From a virus (taxonomy: Duplodnaviria > Caudoviricetes): DNA of 64,000 nt. The translations under genes and the position numbers were made by a program. Positions 3,165 through 58,404 of this stretch are shown here, one piece after another. The DNA is taken from IMG/VR virus record IMGVR_UViG_2890524856_000001, positions 1-64,000 of that record, one strand, 5' to 3'. Position 1 is the stretch's first letter; every line of letters starts with the position of its first letter. The notes beneath the pieces were generated by a model that saw nothing but the letters and a program-made list of their open reading frames with translations, made no database searches and was not told the origin of the DNA.

Positions 3165-3670
3165 GCAACCTTCAACAGCACATTGGCAATAAAACAGTAG
3201 GCACTGGAACCACGCCTGGCGCCTACCAATTTGATCGGTTAATCAAAGCATTACCGGTGACAAATCTAAATACAGCAAGAAAATCAGATGAATTGATTTC
3301 GGAGTTGCTTGCGAACGTCAACGAATATGCTCCAGAGACAGTAACAGCACTACTTGCATACGAAGCAGCCCAATATATTAAATCACTGGAAGAGGAAATT
3401 GCCAAATTAAACCGGAAATCAATCCACGGTTTAGAAATTACTGCCGCTCAGCTGCAAGAAGTGCTGGACTTTGTATTTGCCGATGCCGATGCACGAGATG
3501 ACCACGAAAGCAGCGCTCGAATAGCCTTCCTACCAGCCGAGTATGCCCCGATTGGCGATAACAACATACGGATGAAGCCGGGGCTTTACGCATGTGACGC
3601 AGAATATCCTGAGGAGGGCTGGATCCCACTTTTTGACGATGCTGATAACGATGACGGCGGTGCAGCATGA
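3161..3670 (+). CDS. Hypothetical phage protein
   Basis: 169-aa ORF coupled into the operon; ends in GGCGGTGCAGCATGA. Confidence 0.6.
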   Translation: MSNLQQHIGNKTVGTGTTPGAYQFDRLIKALPVTNLNTARKSDELISELLANVNEYAPETVTALLAYEAAQYIKSLEEEIAKLNRKSIHGLEITAAQLQEVLDFVFADADARDDHESSARIAFLPAEYAPIGDNNIRMKPGLYACDAEYPEEGWIPLFDDADNDDGGAA

Positions 3671-4317
3671 GCCAATTACCACAACGCGACGAAACCAAGC
3701 CAGCTGAACAGCAAGGACTGTTTCAAAAATTCATTGTTGCACGCACAGACGGCAAAGACGCGCCAGGGCAAAAGCATTGCGGGTGCGAATATTTTGTTCT
3801 GGACGTGAAACATGACCAACACGCAAAAGCGGCACTGGCAGCATATGCAATTGCGTGCGCGGAAAGCCATCCAGATTTAAGAAACGATTTGGTGCGACGT
3901 TATGCCCTGCCGCCGCCTGAAGTGGCACATAAACCATCCGGCTATTTTAAAGCAGATTTAAATGGCAATTTATTATGGGGGCAGGATTGCGTAAACGAAG
4001 AGGATGTTTTTTTCAATGGCATTGACGAAATATCCAGACCTTTCTTTATGGCACCGCAAGAATTAGTTAGCCTGGAAGTGGAAAACAGAAAATTGAAGCT
4101 TCGTTTAAATCGAAACGTTTCTTTACTTGCTAATGAAACTTTGCAGTCTGAAAAAGAAAGCCTTTTGCTGCAAATAGCCGAACTGCGCGAAGTGCTGGAG
4201 CTGGCAAAGAACGGACTGCAATGGTACCAGGATCAATTCCCGGAGGTTGCCAGCGAGACGGACTATGAAACTATGGAGCGCATCAATGCAGCGCTGGAAG
4301 GTGTTGAAAATGACTAA
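3667..4317 (+). CDS. Conserved phage hypothetical protein with coiled-coil C-terminus
   Basis: GLFQKFIVARTDG...CEYFVLD...HAKAALAAYA segment typical of phage accessory proteins. Confidence 0.65.
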   Translation: MSQLPQRDETKPAEQQGLFQKFIVARTDGKDAPGQKHCGCEYFVLDVKHDQHAKAALAAYAIACAESHPDLRNDLVRRYALPPPEVAHKPSGYFKADLNGNLLWGQDCVNEEDVFFNGIDEISRPFFMAPQELVSLEVENRKLKLRLNRNVSLLANETLQSEKESLLLQIAELREVLELAKNGLQWYQDQFPEVASETDYETMERINAALEGVEND

Positions 4318-5017
4318 TGAAAAACAAGCGGTTGTTACGGTTGAAAAAGACGGAAATATGTGGTGCGCCAAAGGCGAAGGGTTTATTGACCTGCAAACCA
4401 GTGAAAACTATGCTTTTGGCAATACACGGGAAGAAGCAATCGATAATTATTTTATTGCCGCTGTAGCAAAACTCAATGTATTGCCAGTCCCATCAGTTAC
4501 CGATCTGGAAAAGCATGCGGTTAAAAAAGACGGATCAAGACATGATATTTGCAGACGGATTGAATCAGACCTGAAAATTCAAAACGAGCAGTTGTGCGAT
4601 CAGGCCGAAGCCCTGCGCCAAGAGAATGCCGAACTCAAAGCCCAGCTGGAAAAAGAGCGCATGCGCTTGGCAGGCTGTGCCACAGCGGCACTGATGAATA
4701 CGGAGGAATCAGTTAAAGACCGTATCAGCAGTGACAACCCTTACTGGTCAGCATCCTATGGCGACATATGCAATGCTGTGGATCGTGAAATTGCACTGCG
4801 CAATGAGAATCAGCAATTGAAAAGCGTCATTGACTCTGCGCGAAGCGCAATTGAGGTGCTACTGGATTATGCCAGCCCACCGGAAGCTAACTGCAGCTGT
4901 CATATTTCCCCGACTTGCAATGATTGTATCAATTACGGGAAACAGCGCGAAGATGTGGAATATGTAGAGTCCATAGATAAGGAACTTTGCATAGCACTGA
5001 AAGGCGGTGTGGCATGA
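4310..5017 (+). CDS. Hypothetical mosaic phage protein (coiled coil plus Cys-rich C-terminus)
   Basis: ATG 4310 overlaps the previous gene end; C-S-C-H...C-x-x-C motif. Confidence 0.6.
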   Translation: MTNEKQAVVTVEKDGNMWCAKGEGFIDLQTSENYAFGNTREEAIDNYFIAAVAKLNVLPVPSVTDLEKHAVKKDGSRHDICRRIESDLKIQNEQLCDQAEALRQENAELKAQLEKERMRLAGCATAALMNTEESVKDRISSDNPYWSASYGDICNAVDREIALRNENQQLKSVIDSARSAIEVLLDYASPPEANCSCHISPTCNDCINYGKQREDVEYVESIDKELCIALKGGVA

Positions 5018-20926: not shown

Positions 20927-21084
20927 AGTGGCACCTTTTTGATTGATTTCAGAGATCAACCACTCCAAACTCCAATTTGGGGTGGGAGACTGTACGAGGT
21001 TGGAGTTCTAGCCAAAAGGAAAACTAGCGAGCCTTACGACTCCCTCGCACAGCCCCCCATAGGTAACAGCTGCGCCACGCGAAA

Positions 21085-52188: not shown

Positions 52189-53622
52189 TTACATACCCCA
52201 TCCATTGAGATTGTAATTTGCCCGAGTGACGTTGATAGTTAGGCTATCCGCCGTCATAAAGCGAAATTGTTCCGGCAGTTGAGCTCCGGCAATCGGAGCT
52301 ATATTTACGGTGAAATCAGCACCGTTATCCTGCAGTGCTGGAACCTTTTCCCTTAGCAGCTCATAGACTCGCTTGTACATTGGCATGCTCATTCCTATCC
52401 TTACAGCCGGCGATGAGGCGCCATACTCTGCAAGCAACACATCCCTGATGCTCTGACGAACCGACTCTGTATCATTGACCCTTGCGACCGATGCATTCAC
52501 GGTTGCAACAACGTTAGAAATAACTGGGGCAACGAATGCCACTTTGAATGAGTCATCGGCATCGATAACAACATTGCGAATCATCTCCTGTATAGCCGCC
52601 CGGGACGAGCCAATCGGCTCTAAAAATGAGATGAACAACGTATTAATGTTGCTTACGTTTGCACCGCGAACCGACTCTTCAACAGACTCATTCCAGACAG
52701 ATAAGAATCTAAGATTTGGAACGTTTCTGCGGATTAAAAAATCAAACTCACCCAGGAATACGGCGCTTGAGTCGTATGCGGCCGGGTATTTACACAGCTC
52801 ACGAAGTGTTGGCACGTCCATAGGGTTTGCGCCTGCAACTAAAAGCGCATCCATGGATATCTTTATTTGAGCGTCCTGCGGAGTGTAGGAATACTGCAGT
52901 GAAAATGGACTCCCAGATGGAACTTGGATTTCACCTGACGTTTCACGGACAAGTACCGAATAAACGTCACCGGCCTTTGGCTGATGACCAATCACTTGAT
53001 CGTATCCGAGCACAATAAATATCTTCCGGTACTCATCGCATTCAATATTGAATACAGCATCACCACTGGCTACGTTTGTGAACTCTCGAGAGTATCTGTA
53101 TTCAGTTCCTCCAGAGTCCTTTAACCTGATCCCGCAGATCGTTTTTCCATCAGTCGAGGCGGGGACTTCGACCTTGTAGAACGGCATAGAAACAGAAACG
53201 GTATGGTCAAAGGTTCGCGTCTGAGCCTGAACGAGCTCTGCGAAACCGTCTGAGCCTGGCGGAACCGTCACTGGCAAATCAACTTCATACAGATTTCCGC
53301 TGGAGTCAATCAATGCCCGTCCACTATTCAGCTGATATGGAGAGCTTGAGCTATTTGAGACCTTCACACGAACACGCGATGGCAGCGACATAGGAACCAA
53401 TCCCTTTAGCGCAGCGTCGGCCAAAACAGTGGCATCGCGAGTTTTACTGAATGGCTCCATCATCCCAATTTCCATTTGCTGGGATAACATCGCCAACATT
53501 TGAGCCATTGCTGACTGCGCTTGCAAAATTCGCGGATCACCCGCCTGATACAGCGCAGCCACAGAAGGGTACTGCGCTACGGTCGACTCAATAACGTTCA
53601 GAAAATCCTGCTTCGTATGCAT
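52189..53622 (-). CDS. Baseplate J-like protein (P1 BplA-like)
   Basis: 477 aa; EPFSKTRDATVLADA and AVFLGEFDFLIR motifs. Confidence 0.75.
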   Translation of the reverse strand: MHTKQDFLNVIESTVAQYPSVAALYQAGDPRILQAQSAMAQMLAMLSQQMEIGMMEPFSKTRDATVLADAALKGLVPMSLPSRVRVKVSNSSSSPYQLNSGRALIDSSGNLYEVDLPVTVPPGSDGFAELVQAQTRTFDHTVSVSMPFYKVEVPASTDGKTICGIRLKDSGGTEYRYSREFTNVASGDAVFNIECDEYRKIFIVLGYDQVIGHQPKAGDVYSVLVRETSGEIQVPSGSPFSLQYSYTPQDAQIKISMDALLVAGANPMDVPTLRELCKYPAAYDSSAVFLGEFDFLIRRNVPNLRFLSVWNESVEESVRGANVSNINTLFISFLEPIGSSRAAIQEMIRNVVIDADDSFKVAFVAPVISNVVATVNASVARVNDTESVRQSIRDVLLAEYGASSPAVRIGMSMPMYKRVYELLREKVPALQDNGADFTVNIAPIAGAQLPEQFRFMTADSLTINVTRANYNLNGWGM

Positions 53623-53946
53623 CTATCTACCTCCCACTGTAACGCTCACCCCATCCGATGAAATCATGGATCCAGCAATATCCACTATGAGCAATCGCTT
53701 GTCGGGCTCAATATCTTGGTAATAAATATTAATTGCGCCATTCGGAAGAGCACTCAGAACCGGGATGTCTTGCCGCATTTTTGCAATAAGTGACTGAGAC
53801 ATACCCGCAGATTCTGGGTACTGCAAAAAAGACTTAACGTCATTCCCGTAATCGGAGCCAAGATACGAGCCAACCGGCGTGGCGAGCCAATGGCGAACCA
53901 TGCCCTGTATGTCTACTGCTGTAATGATCGGCTTTGATGAATTCAT
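53623..53946 (-). CDS. gp25/gpW-like baseplate wedge protein
   Basis: HWLATPVGSYLGSDYG motif. Confidence 0.75.
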   Translation of the reverse strand: MNSSKPIITAVDIQGMVRHWLATPVGSYLGSDYGNDVKSFLQYPESAGMSQSLIAKMRQDIPVLSALPNGAINIYYQDIEPDKRLLIVDIAGSMISSDGVSVTVGGR

Positions 53947-53952
53947 TCCTCA

Positions 53953-53993
53953 ATTATCATGTGTGCTTTCATACCAAAATTTCCGCGTTTTCC
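53953..53993 (-). promoter_or_regulatory. Putative late promoter 7 (GGAAAA-N29-GATAAT)
   Basis: Upstream of the baseplate operon; exact spacing. Confidence 0.7.
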
Positions 53994-54000
53994 CTGAAAA

Positions 54001-54029
54001 CAAAAAAGCCTGCAACAATGCAGGCTTTT
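54001..54029 (-). terminator. Intrinsic terminator closing the 56.0-54.0 kb transcription unit
   Basis: AAAGCCTGCA-TTGT-TGCAGGCTTTTTTG on the minus strand. Confidence 0.85.
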
Positions 54030-54420
54030 CATTCAGGCTAGGCCATCCAATTCTATTCAGTTCCTAGGTTTTATCCATTCCCTAGGCGATCTCTGGTTTA
54101 TGTAACTAGCCGTACTCCAGCTGAATCGGTCTCGCAATATGCTCCGTTTCAGCAATACAGAGTTCCGGCCTGTTCCAATAATGCATATAGCTAAACAAGA
54201 GACCTTCAATTATTGCCGGGGAGAAGGCAACAATCAAAAAAAACCTCATCACTAATCTAAGCATTCATATCCTAAAAAAAATTTGCACGAATTAGGCTAG
54301 CCCCGAGTTACTAAGACCTTCGCACTGCTCCTCTTGACCCCAGATTTACCATGCAAGCTCATGGTGGAATATCACCTGCTTTCGCAGCCCTCGATCCGAG
54401 TACGAGGGGATTACCAACAA
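54030..54420 (-). ncRNA. Candidate structured ncRNA segment 2 (~390 nt, unclassified)
   Basis: No ORF of 60 aa or more; helices CCCTCG/CGAGGG, CTGC-GAAA-GCAG, ACCATG/CATGGT, ATTGTTGCC/GGCAATAAT, GGTCTC/GAGACC, CCTAGG/CCTAGG; GU pairs favour the minus strand. Confidence 0.6.
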
Positions 54421-54423
54421 ATT

Positions 54424-54918
54424 TTATTGCTGACCCTGCTTTGAAGCAGAGTTCAATTTATCCAAGTCAGCCTTAGCATCTGCAGCTTGTTTATCAGCGG
54501 CGGCTTTCGCCTCCTCAGCCTGCTTCAGCTTGAGCGCAGCCATTTCTTGGCGCTGCTTTTCAACGGCGGCAGCATCTGCCTTTACGCTCAATTCCATTGC
54601 AAGTGCTTTTTCATCGCGCTCTTTTGCCGACGACAAATAAAGGGAGGCGCATGCCTGATGAAACTCAGCATGTGTCATTGTTTTTCCTGTTTCCTCACCC
54701 GTTTCCTGGTTAATTAACGGGAATTTCTTTTGCGGGTCAACGAATTGGACGATGATACTGTCCACTTGGTTGCCTATCGATTTATCACCCAAAACTACGC
54801 GATCTTCCTCGAGGAAGTGAACAGTTGGAGTTTGACCAAAGCTGTTTTCCGCTACGAATCGCATGCAGCGACGATATGAAACGCCACTGAGGTTTGTTTG
54901 TCGATAATTTTGAGGCAT
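54424..54918 (-). CDS. Small phage protein with Ala/Lys-rich coiled-coil tail, between the two structured segments
   Basis: AAGG RBS; Y.R...N..GQTPTVHFLEE...FPLIN..TGE.TG motif typical of small phage tail-region proteins. Confidence 0.75.
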   Translation of the reverse strand: MPQNYRQTNLSGVSYRRCMRFVAENSFGQTPTVHFLEEDRVVLGDKSIGNQVDSIIVQFVDPQKKFPLINQETGEETGKTMTHAEFHQACASLYLSSAKERDEKALAMELSVKADAAAVEKQRQEMAALKLKQAEEAKAAADKQAADAKADLDKLNSASKQGQQ

Positions 54919-54929
54919 ATAACACCTTA

Positions 54930-56033
54930 TCTGATTGGGTTAAGTTTATAAAATCAGGCTTCTACTTCTATGTGGCGGCCGGCACTGCCTTCTTCCGGCA
55001 TGCCGTGCAGTAAGGTCAGTGCGCCAGCTTTTGCGCCATCCCCGGCAACGACTTGTTTTCTGCTTATTACGTAGCGCATCAGCCTGCGCAATTCCCCCAC
55101 ACAGAAGCGGCCTCTGGTCGTGACGATCCCAGAACCACTAGAGCCAGTGGACACCGTGCACAGTGCTACCCACCTCCCTTGCGCAGTACGCCTATTCGCC
55201 GCCGCTTCTGTGTGGTTCCTGACTCTTACCCGGCCAGGTTAGGTGTGGCGCGCAATACTCTTAATGACTATGAGTTACTAGCCTCCTGCCGGTCGCCAGA
55301 CACCGGCTCTTATCCCTTCGCTTTCAGAGGCAATCCAGTCTTGCGACGCGCTAGGGGTCTACTACTTACAACACCACACAGAAGCGGGTAGGGCGCTACT
55401 CCTACTATCCTCAAAGGCCGACAAAGCCTTTACCTGCATGCGGGTCGGGATCGATACCGATTGCCGCCAATTTTTACTTCGATCTACTGTGCTTTTTCAG
55501 GTGAGCGCAGCAACTTTGCTCTGCGTGTCTGCTTTCCACGCCTCCGCTTTTGTGTGGCCTCTCCTTTAATACTTCGCTGGCGGAGAGCTACCAGCCGGAT
55601 TTTTCGGACACCGGAGTCGGAACGGGGCAGTTGTGAGGCTCCCTGCTCAGGGCGAGTCATTTTGTTCATCCACTTTCTTTTCTGCTGCAATTCTGGCGCT
55701 ACAACAGAGTCATGCTTTCGCCTTCACCAACAAGTTAGGGGGTCTGGACTTGATACCAGCTTGTCGGATTACTGCGATACCGAGTCGCGTGTGGTTGTCG
55801 TCACATTTACCCACAACTTCATTTCCTCTCCCTAGTTCACAGCTCGCACCAAAACTGCTAAGTGATTTGCGAGTCGAATATTTCTGCATCTAGTTCTGCA
55901 CTTCCTTCAGTGCTGCCCCCTAACTTCTTGGCTCCGGCCTTTCTGCCGGATCGGCTACAGCAATTGTTTTTTCTGCTGATTCAAGTAGCTTTTCTCAGAG
56001 TTCCAACGCGCTCAACAAAGATGCGCAATCCAT
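54930..56033 (-). ncRNA. Candidate large structured ncRNA segment 1 (~1.1 kb, unclassified)
   Basis: Own sigma70 promoter, no credible ORF, 11+4-bp long-range helix (55916-55931 with 55727-55742), many hairpins with GU pairs and GNRA loops, five 14-nt inverted repeats. Confidence 0.7.
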
Positions 56034-56039
56034 TTGAGA

Positions 56040-56069
56040 ATTATATTAGCCATTTATGATTATTTGCAA
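56040..56069 (-). promoter_or_regulatory. Sigma70 promoter with an operator-like site, driving the candidate ncRNA
   Basis: TTGCAA-N18-TATAAT; spacer holds TTAGCC-ATTTAT-GATTAT (56046-56063, + strand). Confidence 0.75.
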
Positions 56070-56482
56070 CTAAATTTTTCCGCTTTTAACTTATTAATGA
56101 CGAACCTGACAATTGCATGTCGAACGCACTCGTCTTTGGACGAAAAATTCATGTGCTTTAACGTAACTTGACCTAAGTTCTTTTCGGATTGAGAGCTCAC
56201 AGACACGCTAATTGCGCCCACACCTACAGTCAAGAAATGTTCCGTTTGAAGCGAAATAGCATCATGGGTAAATCTAGTCCAAGATGGCATCATGCAATGC
56301 GGCATAAATTCTGCAAAAGAACAGTTGGCAGGAGGCGCGCCGAAGAAGAAACCTCCCTTAAATTGAATGTCCGTCCATCCAATTAATTCCGCCAACTCCA
56401 TGTTTAGCGCATCAATCTCGTAAGATGCGCTTTCTATCGGAGCTACAACAACACTTTGCTCACACATAAGACCCTCTCTCAA
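56060..56482 (-). CDS. Hypothetical phage protein
   Basis: LAELIGW...PSWTR...AISL pattern; start may be ATG 56467. Confidence 0.6.
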   Translation of the reverse strand: MREGLMCEQSVVVAPIESASYEIDALNMELAELIGWTDIQFKGGFFFGAPPANCSFAEFMPHCMMPSWTRFTHDAISLQTEHFLTVGVGAISVSVSSQSEKNLGQVTLKHMNFSSKDECVRHAIVRFVINKLKAEKFSCK

Positions 56483-56582
56483 TCTTTCGATCCTCGATTA
56501 ATCTTCGGACACTAACGCGACGGCGATTCGCTTCCCTGGCCTCGCCGGCGCTCATAGCCGGATTAGTCATCAAGTCGCTCAT
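56460..56582 (-). CDS. Small ORF (40 aa, MSDLMTNPAMSAGEAREANRRR...)
   Basis: Read by hand; overlaps the start of the next gene. Confidence 0.4.
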   Translation of the reverse strand: MSDLMTNPAMSAGEAREANRRRVSVRRLIEDRKIERGSYV

Positions 56583-56683
56583 CTTTGATGTTGACTTAAC
56601 CTCTTCAAACGAGTGAGTTTTCTTGTATTTTTGCATTTTTAAACCCGTATTTGCATATTTAAGAGCAAATAAATACCAGCACT

Positions 56684-57028
56684 CTAACGGCCATTAGCGA
56701 TCATGTAGGGCTTCCATTTATCCTCGCCCTTTATTGAGTCACCGCGAACCATGATTAACATATCTTTGAATTTTCCGGTCTTTTCCGCGACGCTGATATA
56801 GTCGGAGCAAGGGTGAGGACTTCCAAACGGCGCGCTAATTGGCTTTGCTTTACGCTTTCCGTTAAACAGTTCGCCCTGCTTAACCTCTACAGCAGCATTG
56901 AAATCAGATTGGGACATTGTGAAGTCCTTGTCTTCTTTTCGCACCTTTGCAATTTGGCGCTTTATACACGCATCAGCAATCGGCCTCAGTGATGAATACG
57001 AAACACCAAAAACAATGAACGCTGACAT
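56684..57028 (-). CDS. Hypothetical protein
   Basis: GGAGGG RBS; downstream of the operator-bearing promoter. Confidence 0.65.
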   Translation of the reverse strand: MSAFIVFGVSYSSLRPIADACIKRQIAKVRKEDKDFTMSQSDFNAAVEVKQGELFNGKRKAKPISAPFGSPHPCSDYISVAEKTGKFKDMLIMVRGDSIKGEDKWKPYMIANGR

Positions 57029-57073
57029 TTCAGAACCCTCCTTTGTGGCTAGTTAATAATTCATTTAATGCTT

Positions 57074-57094
57074 ATTATATCCGTATTTGGCTAT
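57074..57094 (-). promoter_or_regulatory. -10 TATAAT overlapped by an operator
   Basis: ATAGCC-AAATAC-GGATAT-AAT on the minus strand. Confidence 0.6.
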
Positions 57095-57118
57095 TTGAGG
57101 ATTATTTTTTGTCGCTCA

Positions 57119-57343
57119 TCAGCACGGATAACCCTCTTTTAACGAGGTATCGCCTTCATGGTACGCATAGAAGCTGCCGGCAACGTGAAAGCACGATGAT
57201 TCGCACGTTTCATCTTGGTTGCGACCATTAGGGCAACGGTAAATAGTGCCATTGATCTTGCCATCGCCGAAACCAGCCAGGCGCCCAAACACATCATCAT
57301 GGATCAGTTCAGCGCCGCAGTACGGGCATTCAATTCCACTCAC
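57119..57343 (-). CDS. Cys-rich hypothetical protein
   Basis: CPYCG...CPN...C; ATGA/GTGA coupling. Confidence 0.6.
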   Translation of the reverse strand: MSGIECPYCGAELIHDDVFGRLAGFGDGKINGTIYRCPNGRNQDETCESSCFHVAGSFYAYHEGDTSLKEGYPC

Positions 57344-57570
57344 GAGGCACCCCTACTAATCTTCGTAATGGCCTCATTCGCATACGAGATACACTGACCA
57401 GGCAACATACCTCCATCATTACCGGAATTAGCAATTTTCTCCAAAGTCAATTTCATTTCCTTGTGCTCAGAGATAAGCTTACGTATTGCGTCAGCCTCTT
57501 TGAAGTCATCGCCACGCGCCATCCATACAGCTGCGCATTCAGCATTTTTATACAGTTCTGTAGTAATCAT
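57340..57570 (-). CDS. Hypothetical protein
   Basis: GAGG RBS; coupled to the next gene. Confidence 0.55.
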   Translation of the reverse strand: MITTELYKNAECAAVWMARGDDFKEADAIRKLISEHKEMKLTLEKIANSGNDGGMLPGQCISYANEAITKISRGAS

Positions 57571-57575
57571 CGAAG

Positions 57576-57863
57576 TTACTCCTCGCAACCTGTTTTTTCC
57601 GCCCCGCCAAGCTGCCCAGTCATCAGTTTTTTAATTTTCTTGATGCTGAAACGGCTCTCTTCATGAATTCGAATAGCTATTACGGATCCAATAGGCAGTC
57701 GGAATGAACGGATTTTACTGATAACCGGTGGAGCCACGCCCAACAGTCGAGCCAGCGCGGCATCATTTCTTAGGCGCAACGAAGAAATTACTTCGTTAAG
57801 CAGCTCATTATTTCCATGTTTTGTCTGAATTAGTTTGCTAAATTTTTCCATTTTTATACTCAC
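57576..57863 (-). CDS. HTH-type DNA-binding protein
   Basis: LRLRNDAALARLLGVAPPVISKIRS, a pattern I associate with Oxalobacteraceae proteins. Confidence 0.7.
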   Translation of the reverse strand: MSIKMEKFSKLIQTKHGNNELLNEVISSLRLRNDAALARLLGVAPPVISKIRSFRLPIGSVIAIRIHEESRFSIKKIKKLMTGQLGGAEKTGCEE

Positions 57864-57870
57864 TTATTTG

Positions 57871-58404
57871 TTAAGAATTCACTTCATCCATACGAAGGCC
57901 GCTTTGAACTGCGGCGATAATTTTGCATAGGTACTCATAATCCGGATTCGGGCGCGATGGCATTGAGTGCCACCAATCTTCACCGAAAATAGGTGCCAAA
58001 ATGCTTGAGTGAGTCCACAGCTCTACGTTTGTGAGCCCGTCGATATCGTCCAAGCTCTCCCATAGTTGACGAGCGGCATTTTTTCTTATGTCGCGCTCGC
58101 GGCGCATTTTGCATATTTCTTTCTTCGCAGCAGGAACAATCGCATCGCCATCTTCGATTGTTGCTGATATCTCTGTATCGAGATTCTTGGCTAGATAGTG
58201 CTCATCAAAACTGCAGAAGAACTGGGCAATCGTTCGCTCCCCCATGCACCCCCATGAGGCAGTCCACGCTTTCGTATAGCAGCAGATAACAATGCGGCCT
58301 TTGCCTGGCTCGGTGTCCTCCAGCATCACATCGATAGGGTCAAGTCGTACCACTTCTGTGATTTTGAGTTTCTTGATCGTTGATGTCGTGACATTGACCT
58401 TCAT
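57871..58404 (-). CDS. Conserved phage hypothetical protein
   Basis: LDPIDVMLED..PGKGRIVICCY.KAWTASWG.MG motif. Confidence 0.7.
   Translation of the reverse strand: MKVNVTTSTIKKLKITEVVRLDPIDVMLEDTEPGKGRIVICCYTKAWTASWGCMGERTIAQFFCSFDEHYLAKNLDTEISATIEDGDAIVPAAKKEICKMRRERDIRKNAARQLWESLDDIDGLTNVELWTHSSILAPIFGEDWWHSMPSRPNPDYEYLCKIIAAVQSGLRMDEVNS

What the first reader, a model, noticed from the sequence alone, without database searches (positions are those of the whole stretch)
54030..54420. Second structured non-coding segment (~390 nt) ending at the terminator
Seen (minus strand): CCCTCG/CGAGGG, CTGC-GAAA-GCAG (GNRA loop), ACCATG/CATGGT, ATTGTTGCC/GGCAATAAT, GGTCTC/GAGACC enclosing ~60 nt, a TTCAG/CTGAA multiloop containing CCTAGG/CCTAGG, and long-range TAATTC/GAATTG and GGCTAG/CTAGCC pairing. 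It shares TAGTAACTC with segment 1. This is far more structure than a 3' UTR needs. Inference: a separate ncRNA or the 3' domain of the giant RNA.
Basis: partly seen in the sequence, partly recalled or inferred. Interest (0 to 1): 0.7.

Follow-up and report, generated by a model that had tools for sequence, protein, structure and literature searches.

The report
Conserved phage 3'-UTR RNA plus insert
The 390-letter stretch is not one big RNA: its first third is a small folded RNA element shared with one sister prophage lineage, and the rest is window-specific filler ending in an ordinary terminator, so it is a modest, narrow-lineage find.

Summary
As a whole the segment folds only slightly better than shuffled controls (z -2.1; the opposite strand gives -2.7). 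Most sub-regions fold no better than shuffles. The motif shared with segment 1 is at chance level. No Rfam family matches.

Comparison with relatives splits the segment into three parts.

1. 54420-54283 (minus strand) is a real, conserved RNA element.
 - Two variable hairpins are followed by a ~90-nt core of two helices, HA and HB.
 - The core recurs at the same position in one sister prophage of the same host genus and in two metagenome contigs ~91% identical to that prophage.
 - Synonymous sites between the two phages are saturated, yet the core is 69% identical.
 - All 13 substitutions in paired columns keep pairing. The consensus fold beats column shuffles (z -3.5) on the sense strand only.
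2. About 54283-54033 is absent from all three homologues, where the core abuts the terminator. It has no relative in any collection searched.
3. 54030-54003 is an intrinsic terminator shared with the relatives. It lies just ahead of the late baseplate operon.

The ORF upstream is a genuine protein gene of a widespread family. The sister phage carries a different ORF in front of the same RNA, so the 'giant RNA 3' domain' reading fails.

My best reading is a 3'-UTR-borne RNA module (a processed sRNA or a stabiliser); its function is inferred, not shown. Earlier notes of this scan concern this same window only.

The parts
54424..54918 (-). Context: 164-aa ORF directly upstream of the segment. It is a real protein gene of an unnamed, widespread family.
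   Evidence: Exhaustive HMMER found 556 clusters at E<=1e-3. The alignment shows a conserved ~105-aa domain. AlphaFold2 gave pLDDT 95.7. There is no Pfam or PHROG match.
54376..54408 (-). Variable hairpins: H1 (CCCTCG/CGAGGG) and H2 (CTGC-GAAA-GCAG). The homologues have hairpins at the same positions, but with different sequence and length.
   Evidence: Sequence and alignment A7 with its consensus fold. The column-shuffle z for this part is only -2.0.
54338..54369 (-). Helix HA of the conserved core. UUCC pairs with GGGG around the hairpin ACCAUG-AGCUUG-CAUGGU, with a conserved internal loop AAAUCU.
   Evidence: RNAalifold. The pairs A-U>G-C, U-A>U-G, A-U>G-U and U-G>U-A are all kept. L125 and L114, which were not used to derive the structure, add G-C>U-G and G-U>A-U.
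54326..54337 (-). Conserved unpaired linker UCAAGAG-GAGCA between HA and HB.
   Evidence: It is nearly invariant in all four sequences. No complementary site is enriched in the window.
54285..54325 (-). Helix HB of the conserved core. GUGCGAAGGU pairs with GCCU..UCGUGC around a variable loop.
   Evidence: RNAalifold. The pairs U-G>C-G, G-U>G-C and G-C>A-U are kept. The loop varies in length among homologues.
54274..54281 (-). U8 tract three bases after HB. It is a possible weak termination point that would leave the conserved core at the RNA's 3' end, as in the relatives.
   Evidence: Sequence. The HB hairpin folds at -11.9 kcal/mol. It was not picked up by the terminator scan, so this is inference.
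54033..54283 (-). Window-specific stretch of ~250 nt, absent from the three homologous loci. It is flanked by a 7-nt direct repeat CTAGCCT (54300-54294 and 54041-54035).
   Evidence: Alignments. No relative was found in phages or plasmids, 100 relatives or 400 genomes of the class. It is single-copy in its own genome. It is not a degenerate second copy of the core.
54203..54240 (-). 15-bp A/U-rich hairpin followed by a U-rich tail. It is the only part of the insert that folds clearly better than shuffles, and it is terminator-like.
   Evidence: Terminator scan and fold z -3.2.
54106..54264 (-). Possible small ORF of 52 aa with a hydrophobic N-terminus and AGGA five bases upstream of the ATG. 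Whether it is coding is undecided.
   Evidence: Translation. No homologue was found, and there is no Pfam or NCBIfam match. The codon score is 0.014; real genes give 0.199 (5th percentile 0.103) and out-of-frame windows give -0.36.
54003..54030 (-). Intrinsic terminator (12-bp stem and a U tract), shared in position and flanks with the relatives.
   Evidence: Terminator scan and alignment with G038. It is the only part of the segment that matched in other genomes of the genus.
53985..53995 (-). Context: motif AGGGAAAACGC ahead of a TATGAA -10-like hexamer and the baseplate gene start at 53946. It is a candidate late-promoter element.
   Evidence: It is identical in G038 and similar (AGGAAAACCCC) in Collimonas prophages. 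It is not repeated elsewhere in the window above chance.

Best explanation
The segment is the composite 3' untranslated tail of a prophage moron or early transcript, not a single RNA.

Directly after the stop codon of the 164-aa gene lies a ~140-nt structured RNA module. It has two variable hairpins and a ~90-nt conserved core of two helices (HA, HB), joined by a conserved unpaired linker. In the sister phage lineage the same module follows a different gene and runs straight into the terminator.

I infer that the module is a 3'-UTR-borne RNA. Either it is released as a small regulatory RNA, by cleavage in the A/U-rich stretch next to the stop codon, or it protects the transcript's 3' end.

In this window about 250 nt of unrelated, lineage-specific sequence has been inserted between the module and the terminator. 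This insert holds one strong hairpin and an unproven 52-codon ORF. The terminator closes the unit and insulates the late baseplate operon that starts at 53946.

Shown: homology, selection, strand-specific covariation, the insertion and the terminator. Inferred: transcription from the promoter-like site at 56069-56040, any processing, and any trans or stabilising function.
For: Context: this is a P1-like prophage, with C4 RNA and baseplate genes. The only terminator-like sites on the minus strand between 56.07 kb and 54.0 kb are at 54240 and 54030.

Homologues of the core:
- L059/L017 in a genome of the same genus
- L125 and L114 in metagenomes
All lie between an upstream ORF's stop codon and the terminator plus baseplate operon.

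Selection: identity at four-fold degenerate sites between the two phages is 22-27%, which is saturated. The core is 59/85 identical.

Structure:
- 22 pairs were predicted. 13 substitutions fall in paired columns and none breaks a pair.
- The consensus-fold z against column shuffles is -3.6 and -3.5 on the sense strand and -0.9 on the antisense strand. With four sequences it is -3.6.
- G038 and L125 differ at 16 positions. All are in loops or keep or improve pairing, including two double compensatory changes.

Independence from the ORF: the upstream ORF is Gp49-like in G038 but a different family here.

Insertion: the core abuts the terminator in all three homologues.
Against: - There are only two independent lineages (four sequences), so covariation statistics are weak. 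The pair-shuffle control reached the observed value in 66 of 500 shuffles.
- Single-sequence folding of the core is no better than shuffles (z +0.83 and +0.88), and the single-sequence MFE folds differ from the consensus.
- The small 2-bp helix inside HB is broken in L125 and L114.
- No promoter of its own and no target were found.
- There are no expression data.
- In this window the 250-nt insert separates the module from the terminator, which sits awkwardly with a terminator-dependent sRNA unless the U8 tract terminates.
Confidence: 0.5

Rival explanations
1. The whole 390 nt is one structured ncRNA, or the 3' domain of a ~2-kb giant RNA that carries the ORF in a loop.
For: Many stems are present, and the MFE fold has long-range 5'-3' pairing. 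No strong terminator lies between 56.07 kb and 54.24 kb.
Against: - Folding is barely better than shuffles, and equally so on the opposite strand.
- 250 of the 390 nt are missing in all homologues.
- Segment 1 has no counterpart in the sister phage.
- The ORF is a normal protein gene, and in other phages it sits in compact operons without RNA flanks.
- Rfam's models of large RNAs give no hit.
Confidence: 0.04
2. The window-specific 250 nt is a small moron gene. It would encode a 52-aa hydrophobic peptide (54264-54106), possibly a type I toxin-like or membrane-acting protein, whose mRNA is held closed by 5'-3' fold-back pairing in the manner of hok.
For: - The ORF has AGGA five bases upstream of its ATG and a hydrophobic N-terminal half.
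- The MFE fold pairs the region around the ribosome-binding site with the 3' end.
- It has its own downstream terminator.
- Its length matches Hok (52 aa, from my own knowledge).
Against: - No homologue was found, and Pfam (including Hok_Gef) and NCBIfam give no match. The Atlas search gave no usable hit.
- The codon score is below every real-gene window.
- The hydrophobic stretch is encoded by a T-rich run, which gives such peptides by chance.
- No antisense promoter was found.
- The fold z is only -2.0.
Confidence: 0.12
3. The conserved block is a DNA-level feature with no RNA function. It could be a module-boundary 'linker' kept by recombination between phages, or a protein-binding site.
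For: Homology begins right at the stop codon of two unrelated ORFs, as expected at a cassette junction. Substitution rates in paired and unpaired columns are equal, at 13/44 and 13/41.
Against: - The structure signal is strand-specific and relies on G-U pairs that would be C-A on the other strand.
- None of the 13 paired-column changes breaks a pair.
- A recent exchange would give near-identity, not 69%, with saturated synonymous sites nearby.
- Motifs of the block are not repeated elsewhere in the window.
Confidence: 0.12
4. The core acts in cis on transcription. It would modulate termination or read-through at the downstream terminator, and so the coupling between the moron or early unit and the late baseplate operon (put-like or attenuator-like).
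For: Its position, immediately upstream of a terminator and of the late operon, is conserved in both lineages.
Against: I could find no alternative pairing between the core and the terminator stem conserved in both lineages (inspection). In this window 250 nt separate the two. Known put RNAs lie near promoters, not in 3' UTRs (my own knowledge).
Confidence: 0.1

Closest known systems
Prophage sRNAs at moron insertion sites of lambdoid prophages (EcOnc01-03, AsxR, AgvB; Tree et al. 2014, PMC4104026)
   Same: These are short, structured, terminator-ended RNAs encoded 3' of a variable moron gene, at a conserved position in related prophages. Here the conserved RNA module likewise follows variable cargo genes at a fixed site just upstream of a late operon.
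   Different: The phage type (P1-like) and the host (Burkholderiales by the nearest relatives) both differ. There is no sequence or Rfam relationship. No promoter of its own, Hfq binding or target has been shown. The family has only two lineages.
3'-UTR-derived sRNAs released by RNase E (e.g. CpxQ, SroC; my own knowledge)
   Same: The module starts in an A/U-rich stretch right after a stop codon, and in the relatives it shares the mRNA's terminator. It also has conserved unpaired stretches that could serve as seeds.
   Different: Processing has not been observed. In this window the terminator is 250 nt away. No targets were found.
Lambda sib retroregulator and HK022 put RNAs (my own knowledge)
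   Same: Both are phage cis-acting RNA structures placed next to terminators that set the fate of a transcript.
   Different: Here there is no long RNase III-type duplex (HB has 10 pairs with loops). No alternative pairing with the terminator was seen. put sites lie just downstream of promoters.
hok/sok-type type I toxin mRNAs (compared with the 3' 250 nt only)
   Same: Both have a ~50-aa hydrophobic ORF inside a folded mRNA with 5'-3' fold-back pairing and a terminator.
   Different: There is no Hok_Gef match, no antisense promoter, no homologues and a weak coding signal.
C4 antisense RNA of P1/P7 (RF01695)
   Same: It is a regulatory RNA of the same prophage, present at 20978-21064.
   Different: It is unrelated in sequence and position. 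An unrestricted duplex calculation between C4 and the segment was within the range of shuffles.

Membership tests
Any Rfam 15 family, including the large structured RNAs GOLLD, ROOL, HEARO and OLE, and group I/II introns | A covariance-model score at or above the family's gathering threshold | tested here: not met
   The only hit in the window at gathering threshold is C4, at 20978-21064. Permissive scans of 53000-58000, of 53990-54440 and of the homologous locus give only sub-threshold hits, mostly over the terminator hairpin.
Intrinsic (Rho-independent) terminator | A G+C-rich stem-loop followed directly by a U tract on the transcribed strand | tested here: met
   54030-54003 has a 12-bp stem, a 4-nt loop and a U tract. 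It is conserved in position in G038, L125 and L114.
3'-UTR-derived sRNA | It lies directly downstream of a stop codon on the sense strand and shares the mRNA's terminator | tested here: inconclusive
   This holds in the three homologues, where the core abuts the terminator. In the window 250 nt intervene, and only a U8 tract follows HB.
3'-UTR-derived sRNA | A stable processed RNA species, chaperone binding and a target | not testable with these tools
   No transcriptome data are available. A search of the window for complements of the conserved linker found nothing above chance.
Conserved structured RNA (general criterion) | Base pairs maintained by compensatory change beyond what shuffled alignments give, on one strand only | tested here: met
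   z is -3.5 to -3.6 on the sense strand and -0.9 on the antisense strand. None of the 13 substitutions in paired columns breaks a pair. Caveat: there are four sequences from two lineages.
Hok/Gef type I toxin (PF01848) | A match to the Hok_Gef profile and an antisense Sok-like RNA gene | tested here: not met
   There is no Pfam or NCBIfam hit even at E<=10. No promoter-like site lies on the opposite strand within the segment.
tRNA or tRNA-like module, as reported by earlier notes for segment 1 | A cloverleaf detected by ARAGORN, or similarity to the segment 1 cassettes | tested here: not met
   ARAGORN finds no tRNA or tmRNA in the window. The local alignment of segment 2 against segment 1 scores below shuffles. 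Model R1 hits only 54375-54283 in the window.

The most novel reading that the evidence does not exclude
The conserved HA-linker-HB module could be a previously undescribed phage regulatory RNA with a specific job at the boundary between the repressor-controlled moron or early unit and the late baseplate operon. It might gate read-through, or act in trans on host or phage mRNAs, or as a decoy, during lysogeny. If so it would found a new RNA family specific to P1-like prophages of Burkholderiales.
Probability: 0.15. Interest if true: 0.5.

Novelty: new member of a known kind. Interest (0 to 1): 0.3.

Why it matters
If the module is expressed, it adds an unannotated RNA motif to the small set of regulatory RNAs known from P1-like phages. 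It would also extend a pattern seen in lambdoid prophages of E. coli, small RNAs parked at moron sites next to late operons, to a distant phage type and host group.

The analysis also removes a more exciting but unsupported idea, a ~2-kb giant RNA with an embedded ORF. It shows that stem counting alone over-called structure here. The practical value is modest, because the family is narrow (two lineages) and its function is unknown.

Tried and rejected
**Searches for relatives of the segment that found nothing**
- blastn of the 2.15-kb unit against phages and plasmids gave no match.
- DNA searches in 100 relatives and in 400 genomes of the class matched only the terminator or nothing.
- The own genome holds a single copy, so the insert is not a repeated element or MITE.
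- IMG/VR pattern scans gave chance hits or none.
- The first metagenome pattern found nothing. The second gave 62 loci, and only two were real by the covariance model.

**Searches with model R1**
- In 84 genomes of the genus and 51 related P1-like prophage loci it found only G038. The weak hits fall inside coding genes.
- It found no degenerate second copy of the core in the insert.

**Protein-based routes**
- The word-indexed search wrongly suggested that the 164-aa ORF is an orphan. The exhaustive search corrected this.
- Relatives of the baseplate gene at 66-71% identity exist in Logan/ENA assemblies.

**Ideas tested and dropped**
- The start of the insert as a decayed copy of the terminator and late-promoter junction: the alignment scores at shuffle level.
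- The conserved block as coding sequence: stop codons occur in two frames, and in the third frame the substitutions fall at codon positions 1 and 2 (inspection).
- Pairing with C4 RNA: within the range of shuffles.
- Repeated operator-like motifs: none above chance.
- Hok membership: not met.

Full report
**Setting.** The window carries a P1-like prophage.
- Rfam finds a C4 antisense RNA at 20978-21064.
- The genes downstream of the finding are baseplate and tail-fibre genes (phrog_1369 and others).
- All genes around the finding lie on the minus strand.
- In order, the unit reads: a promoter-like site at 56069-56040, a 1.1-kb gene-free stretch (segment 1), a 164-aa ORF (54918-54424), the finding (54420-54030), an intrinsic terminator (54030-54003), and then the baseplate operon from 53946.
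- The nearest relatives of the baseplate protein are prophages of Collimonas (55-57%) and a Burkholderiaceae MAG (63%). The host is therefore probably a member of Burkholderiales.

**Checking the observation.** The structure is not clearly more than chance.
- The 421-nt stretch including the terminator folds with z -2.1, and the opposite strand gives -2.7.
- The 5' 131 nt give -0.28.
- The conserved core alone gives +0.83, 54115-54206 gives -0.02 and 54036-54120 gives -1.37.
- Only the 15-bp hairpin at 54240-54203 (z -3.2) and the terminator stand out.
- Perfect 6-bp stems number 13, against 9.1 +/- 3.9 in shuffles.
- Segments 1 and 2 share three 9-mers, against 1.66 expected, so TAGTAACTC is a chance match. 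The best local alignment between the segments is below shuffles.
- No Rfam family reaches threshold. The permissive hits sit mostly on the terminator hairpin.
- ARAGORN finds no tRNA.

**Relatives.** DNA searches against phages, plasmids, 100 relatives and 400 genomes of the class found nothing beyond the terminator.
- Searching the genus with the 107-aa gene that follows the segment found one sister prophage, G038 (locus L017, the same contig as L059; 71% protein identity).
- In G038 a 290-nt non-coding stretch separates a Gp49-like gene (PF13876) from the same baseplate operon.
- About 95 nt of that stretch align with window 54375-54283. The terminator and a promoter-proximal motif AGGGAAAACGC also align.
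- A pattern taken from the conserved block, scanned through the metagenome collection and screened with covariance model R1, gave two more copies, L125 and L114. Both come from phages about 91% identical to G038.
- No further copy was found in the 84 genomes of the genus, in 51 related P1-like prophage loci from the species-wide genome collection, or in IMG/VR.

**Is the block selected, and as RNA?** Between the window and G038, four-fold degenerate sites in three flanking genes are 22-27% identical, which is saturated. Neutral DNA should therefore be unalignable, yet the core is 59/85 identical.

RNAalifold gives two helices:
- HA, in which UUCC pairs with GGGG/GGAA around a 6-bp hairpin.
- HB, in which GUGCGAAGGU pairs with GCCU..UCGUGC.

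The evidence for these helices is as follows.
- Thirteen substitutions fall in the 44 paired columns and none breaks a pair. Three pairs change on both sides.
- Against alignments with shuffled columns, the consensus energy has z -3.6 and -3.5 on the sense strand but -0.9 on the reverse complement. With four sequences it is -3.6.
- L125 and L114 were not used to derive the structure. In HA they carry G-C>U-G and G-U>A-U.
- All 16 differences between G038 and L125 in the 196-nt non-coding stretch lie in loops or keep or improve pairing. One is a compensatory change in a lineage-specific hairpin, H0.

The caveats are these.
- There are two independent lineages only.
- The pair-shuffle control has little power with two rows (66 of 500 shuffles).
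- Single-sequence folds are not unusually stable and differ from the consensus.
- A 2-bp inner helix is not kept.
- The block is not coding. Two frames carry stops, and in the third the substitutions hit codon positions 1 and 2.

**The rest of the segment.** In all three homologues the core runs straight into the terminator.
- In the window about 250 nt (54283-54033) lie between them. They are flanked by a 7-nt direct repeat CTAGCCT.
- This stretch has no relative anywhere I could search and is single-copy in its own genome.
- It is not a decayed copy of the core or of the terminator and promoter junction.
- It begins with a U8 tract three bases after HB. It holds the one strong hairpin (54240-54203).
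- It also contains a 52-codon ORF with a plausible ribosome-binding site and a hydrophobic N-terminal half.
- That ORF has no homologue and matches no family. Its codon score of 0.014 lies between real genes (0.199; 5th percentile 0.103) and out-of-frame windows (-0.36). Whether it is coding therefore stays open.

**The 'giant RNA' idea.**
- The word-indexed search suggested the 164-aa ORF was an orphan. The exhaustive search found 556 related clusters with a conserved ~105-aa domain.
- AlphaFold2 gives a confident model, with pLDDT 95.7, a five-stranded sheet and a long helix. There is no clear PDB match.
- In IMG/VR contigs the homologues sit tightly behind large ORFs, several of which match tail-fibre or virion-protein families, with no non-coding flanks.
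- The sister phage has an unrelated gene in front of the same RNA module, and nothing alignable to segment 1.
- The module is therefore independent both of the ORF and of segment 1.

**Interpretation.** The best-supported reading is a conserved 3'-UTR-borne RNA module at a moron site just upstream of the late baseplate operon, followed here by a lineage-specific insertion and the shared terminator.
- No sigma-70-like promoter precedes the module in either lineage. It would therefore be made as part of the upstream mRNA.
- A/U-rich sequence next to the stop codon is compatible with RNase E cleavage. This is inference from general knowledge.
- The nearest known kind is the set of small RNAs found at moron sites 3' of cargo genes in lambdoid prophages (PMC4104026). 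There is no sequence relationship to them.
- Whether the module acts in trans, stabilises the mRNA or influences termination cannot be decided without expression data.

**Earlier notes.** Earlier notes of this scan concern this same window only. They describe segment 1 as an array of hairpin or tRNA-like cassettes. I did not test that, and I found no similarity between those cassettes and this segment.

Noticed in passing
window 54424-54918 (-): The 164-aa ORF belongs to an unnamed but widespread family (556 clusters at 50% identity). It has a conserved ~105-aa N-terminal domain and variable Ala/Gln/Lys-rich helical tails. The AlphaFold2 model is very confident (pLDDT 95.7) and has no clear PDB match. 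In IMG/VR contigs the homologues sit directly behind large ORFs, several of them tail-fibre-like, which suggests a tail-fibre accessory role.
   Followed up: partly
window 53985-53995 (-); L059 about 3630-3640; L024-L027 and L067 about 4655-4670: The motif AGG(G)AAAAC(G/C)C lies about 45-50 nt upstream of the first baseplate-operon gene. It is conserved between this prophage, G038 and the Collimonas prophages, and is a candidate late-promoter or activator site. It is not repeated elsewhere in the window above chance.
   Followed up: partly
L023-L027, L067 (Collimonas prophages), about 4000-4700: The site just upstream of the baseplate operon carries different cargo in each related prophage, such as small ORFs on either strand and gaps of 240-550 nt. 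It looks like a moron hot spot.
   Followed up: partly
L059 2666-2988 (+): The sister prophage also has a ~320-nt gene-free stretch upstream of its Gp49-like gene. This is the position where the window has the 1.1-kb segment 1. blastn found no similarity between the two.
   Followed up: partly
window 54300-54294 and 54041-54035 (-): A 7-nt direct repeat CTAGCCT brackets the window-specific 250 nt, and the homologues have one copy. This may be the trace of an illegitimate recombination or insertion event.
   Followed up: no
window 56684-57028 (-) and L059 2294-2665 (+): A 114/123-aa ORF upstream of the whole unit is shared between the two prophages at about 41% identity. It marks the left edge of the variable region.
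   Followed up: no
window 20978-21064 (-): A C4 antisense RNA (RF01695, 67.6 bits) marks the P1-type immunity region of this prophage.
   Followed up: no
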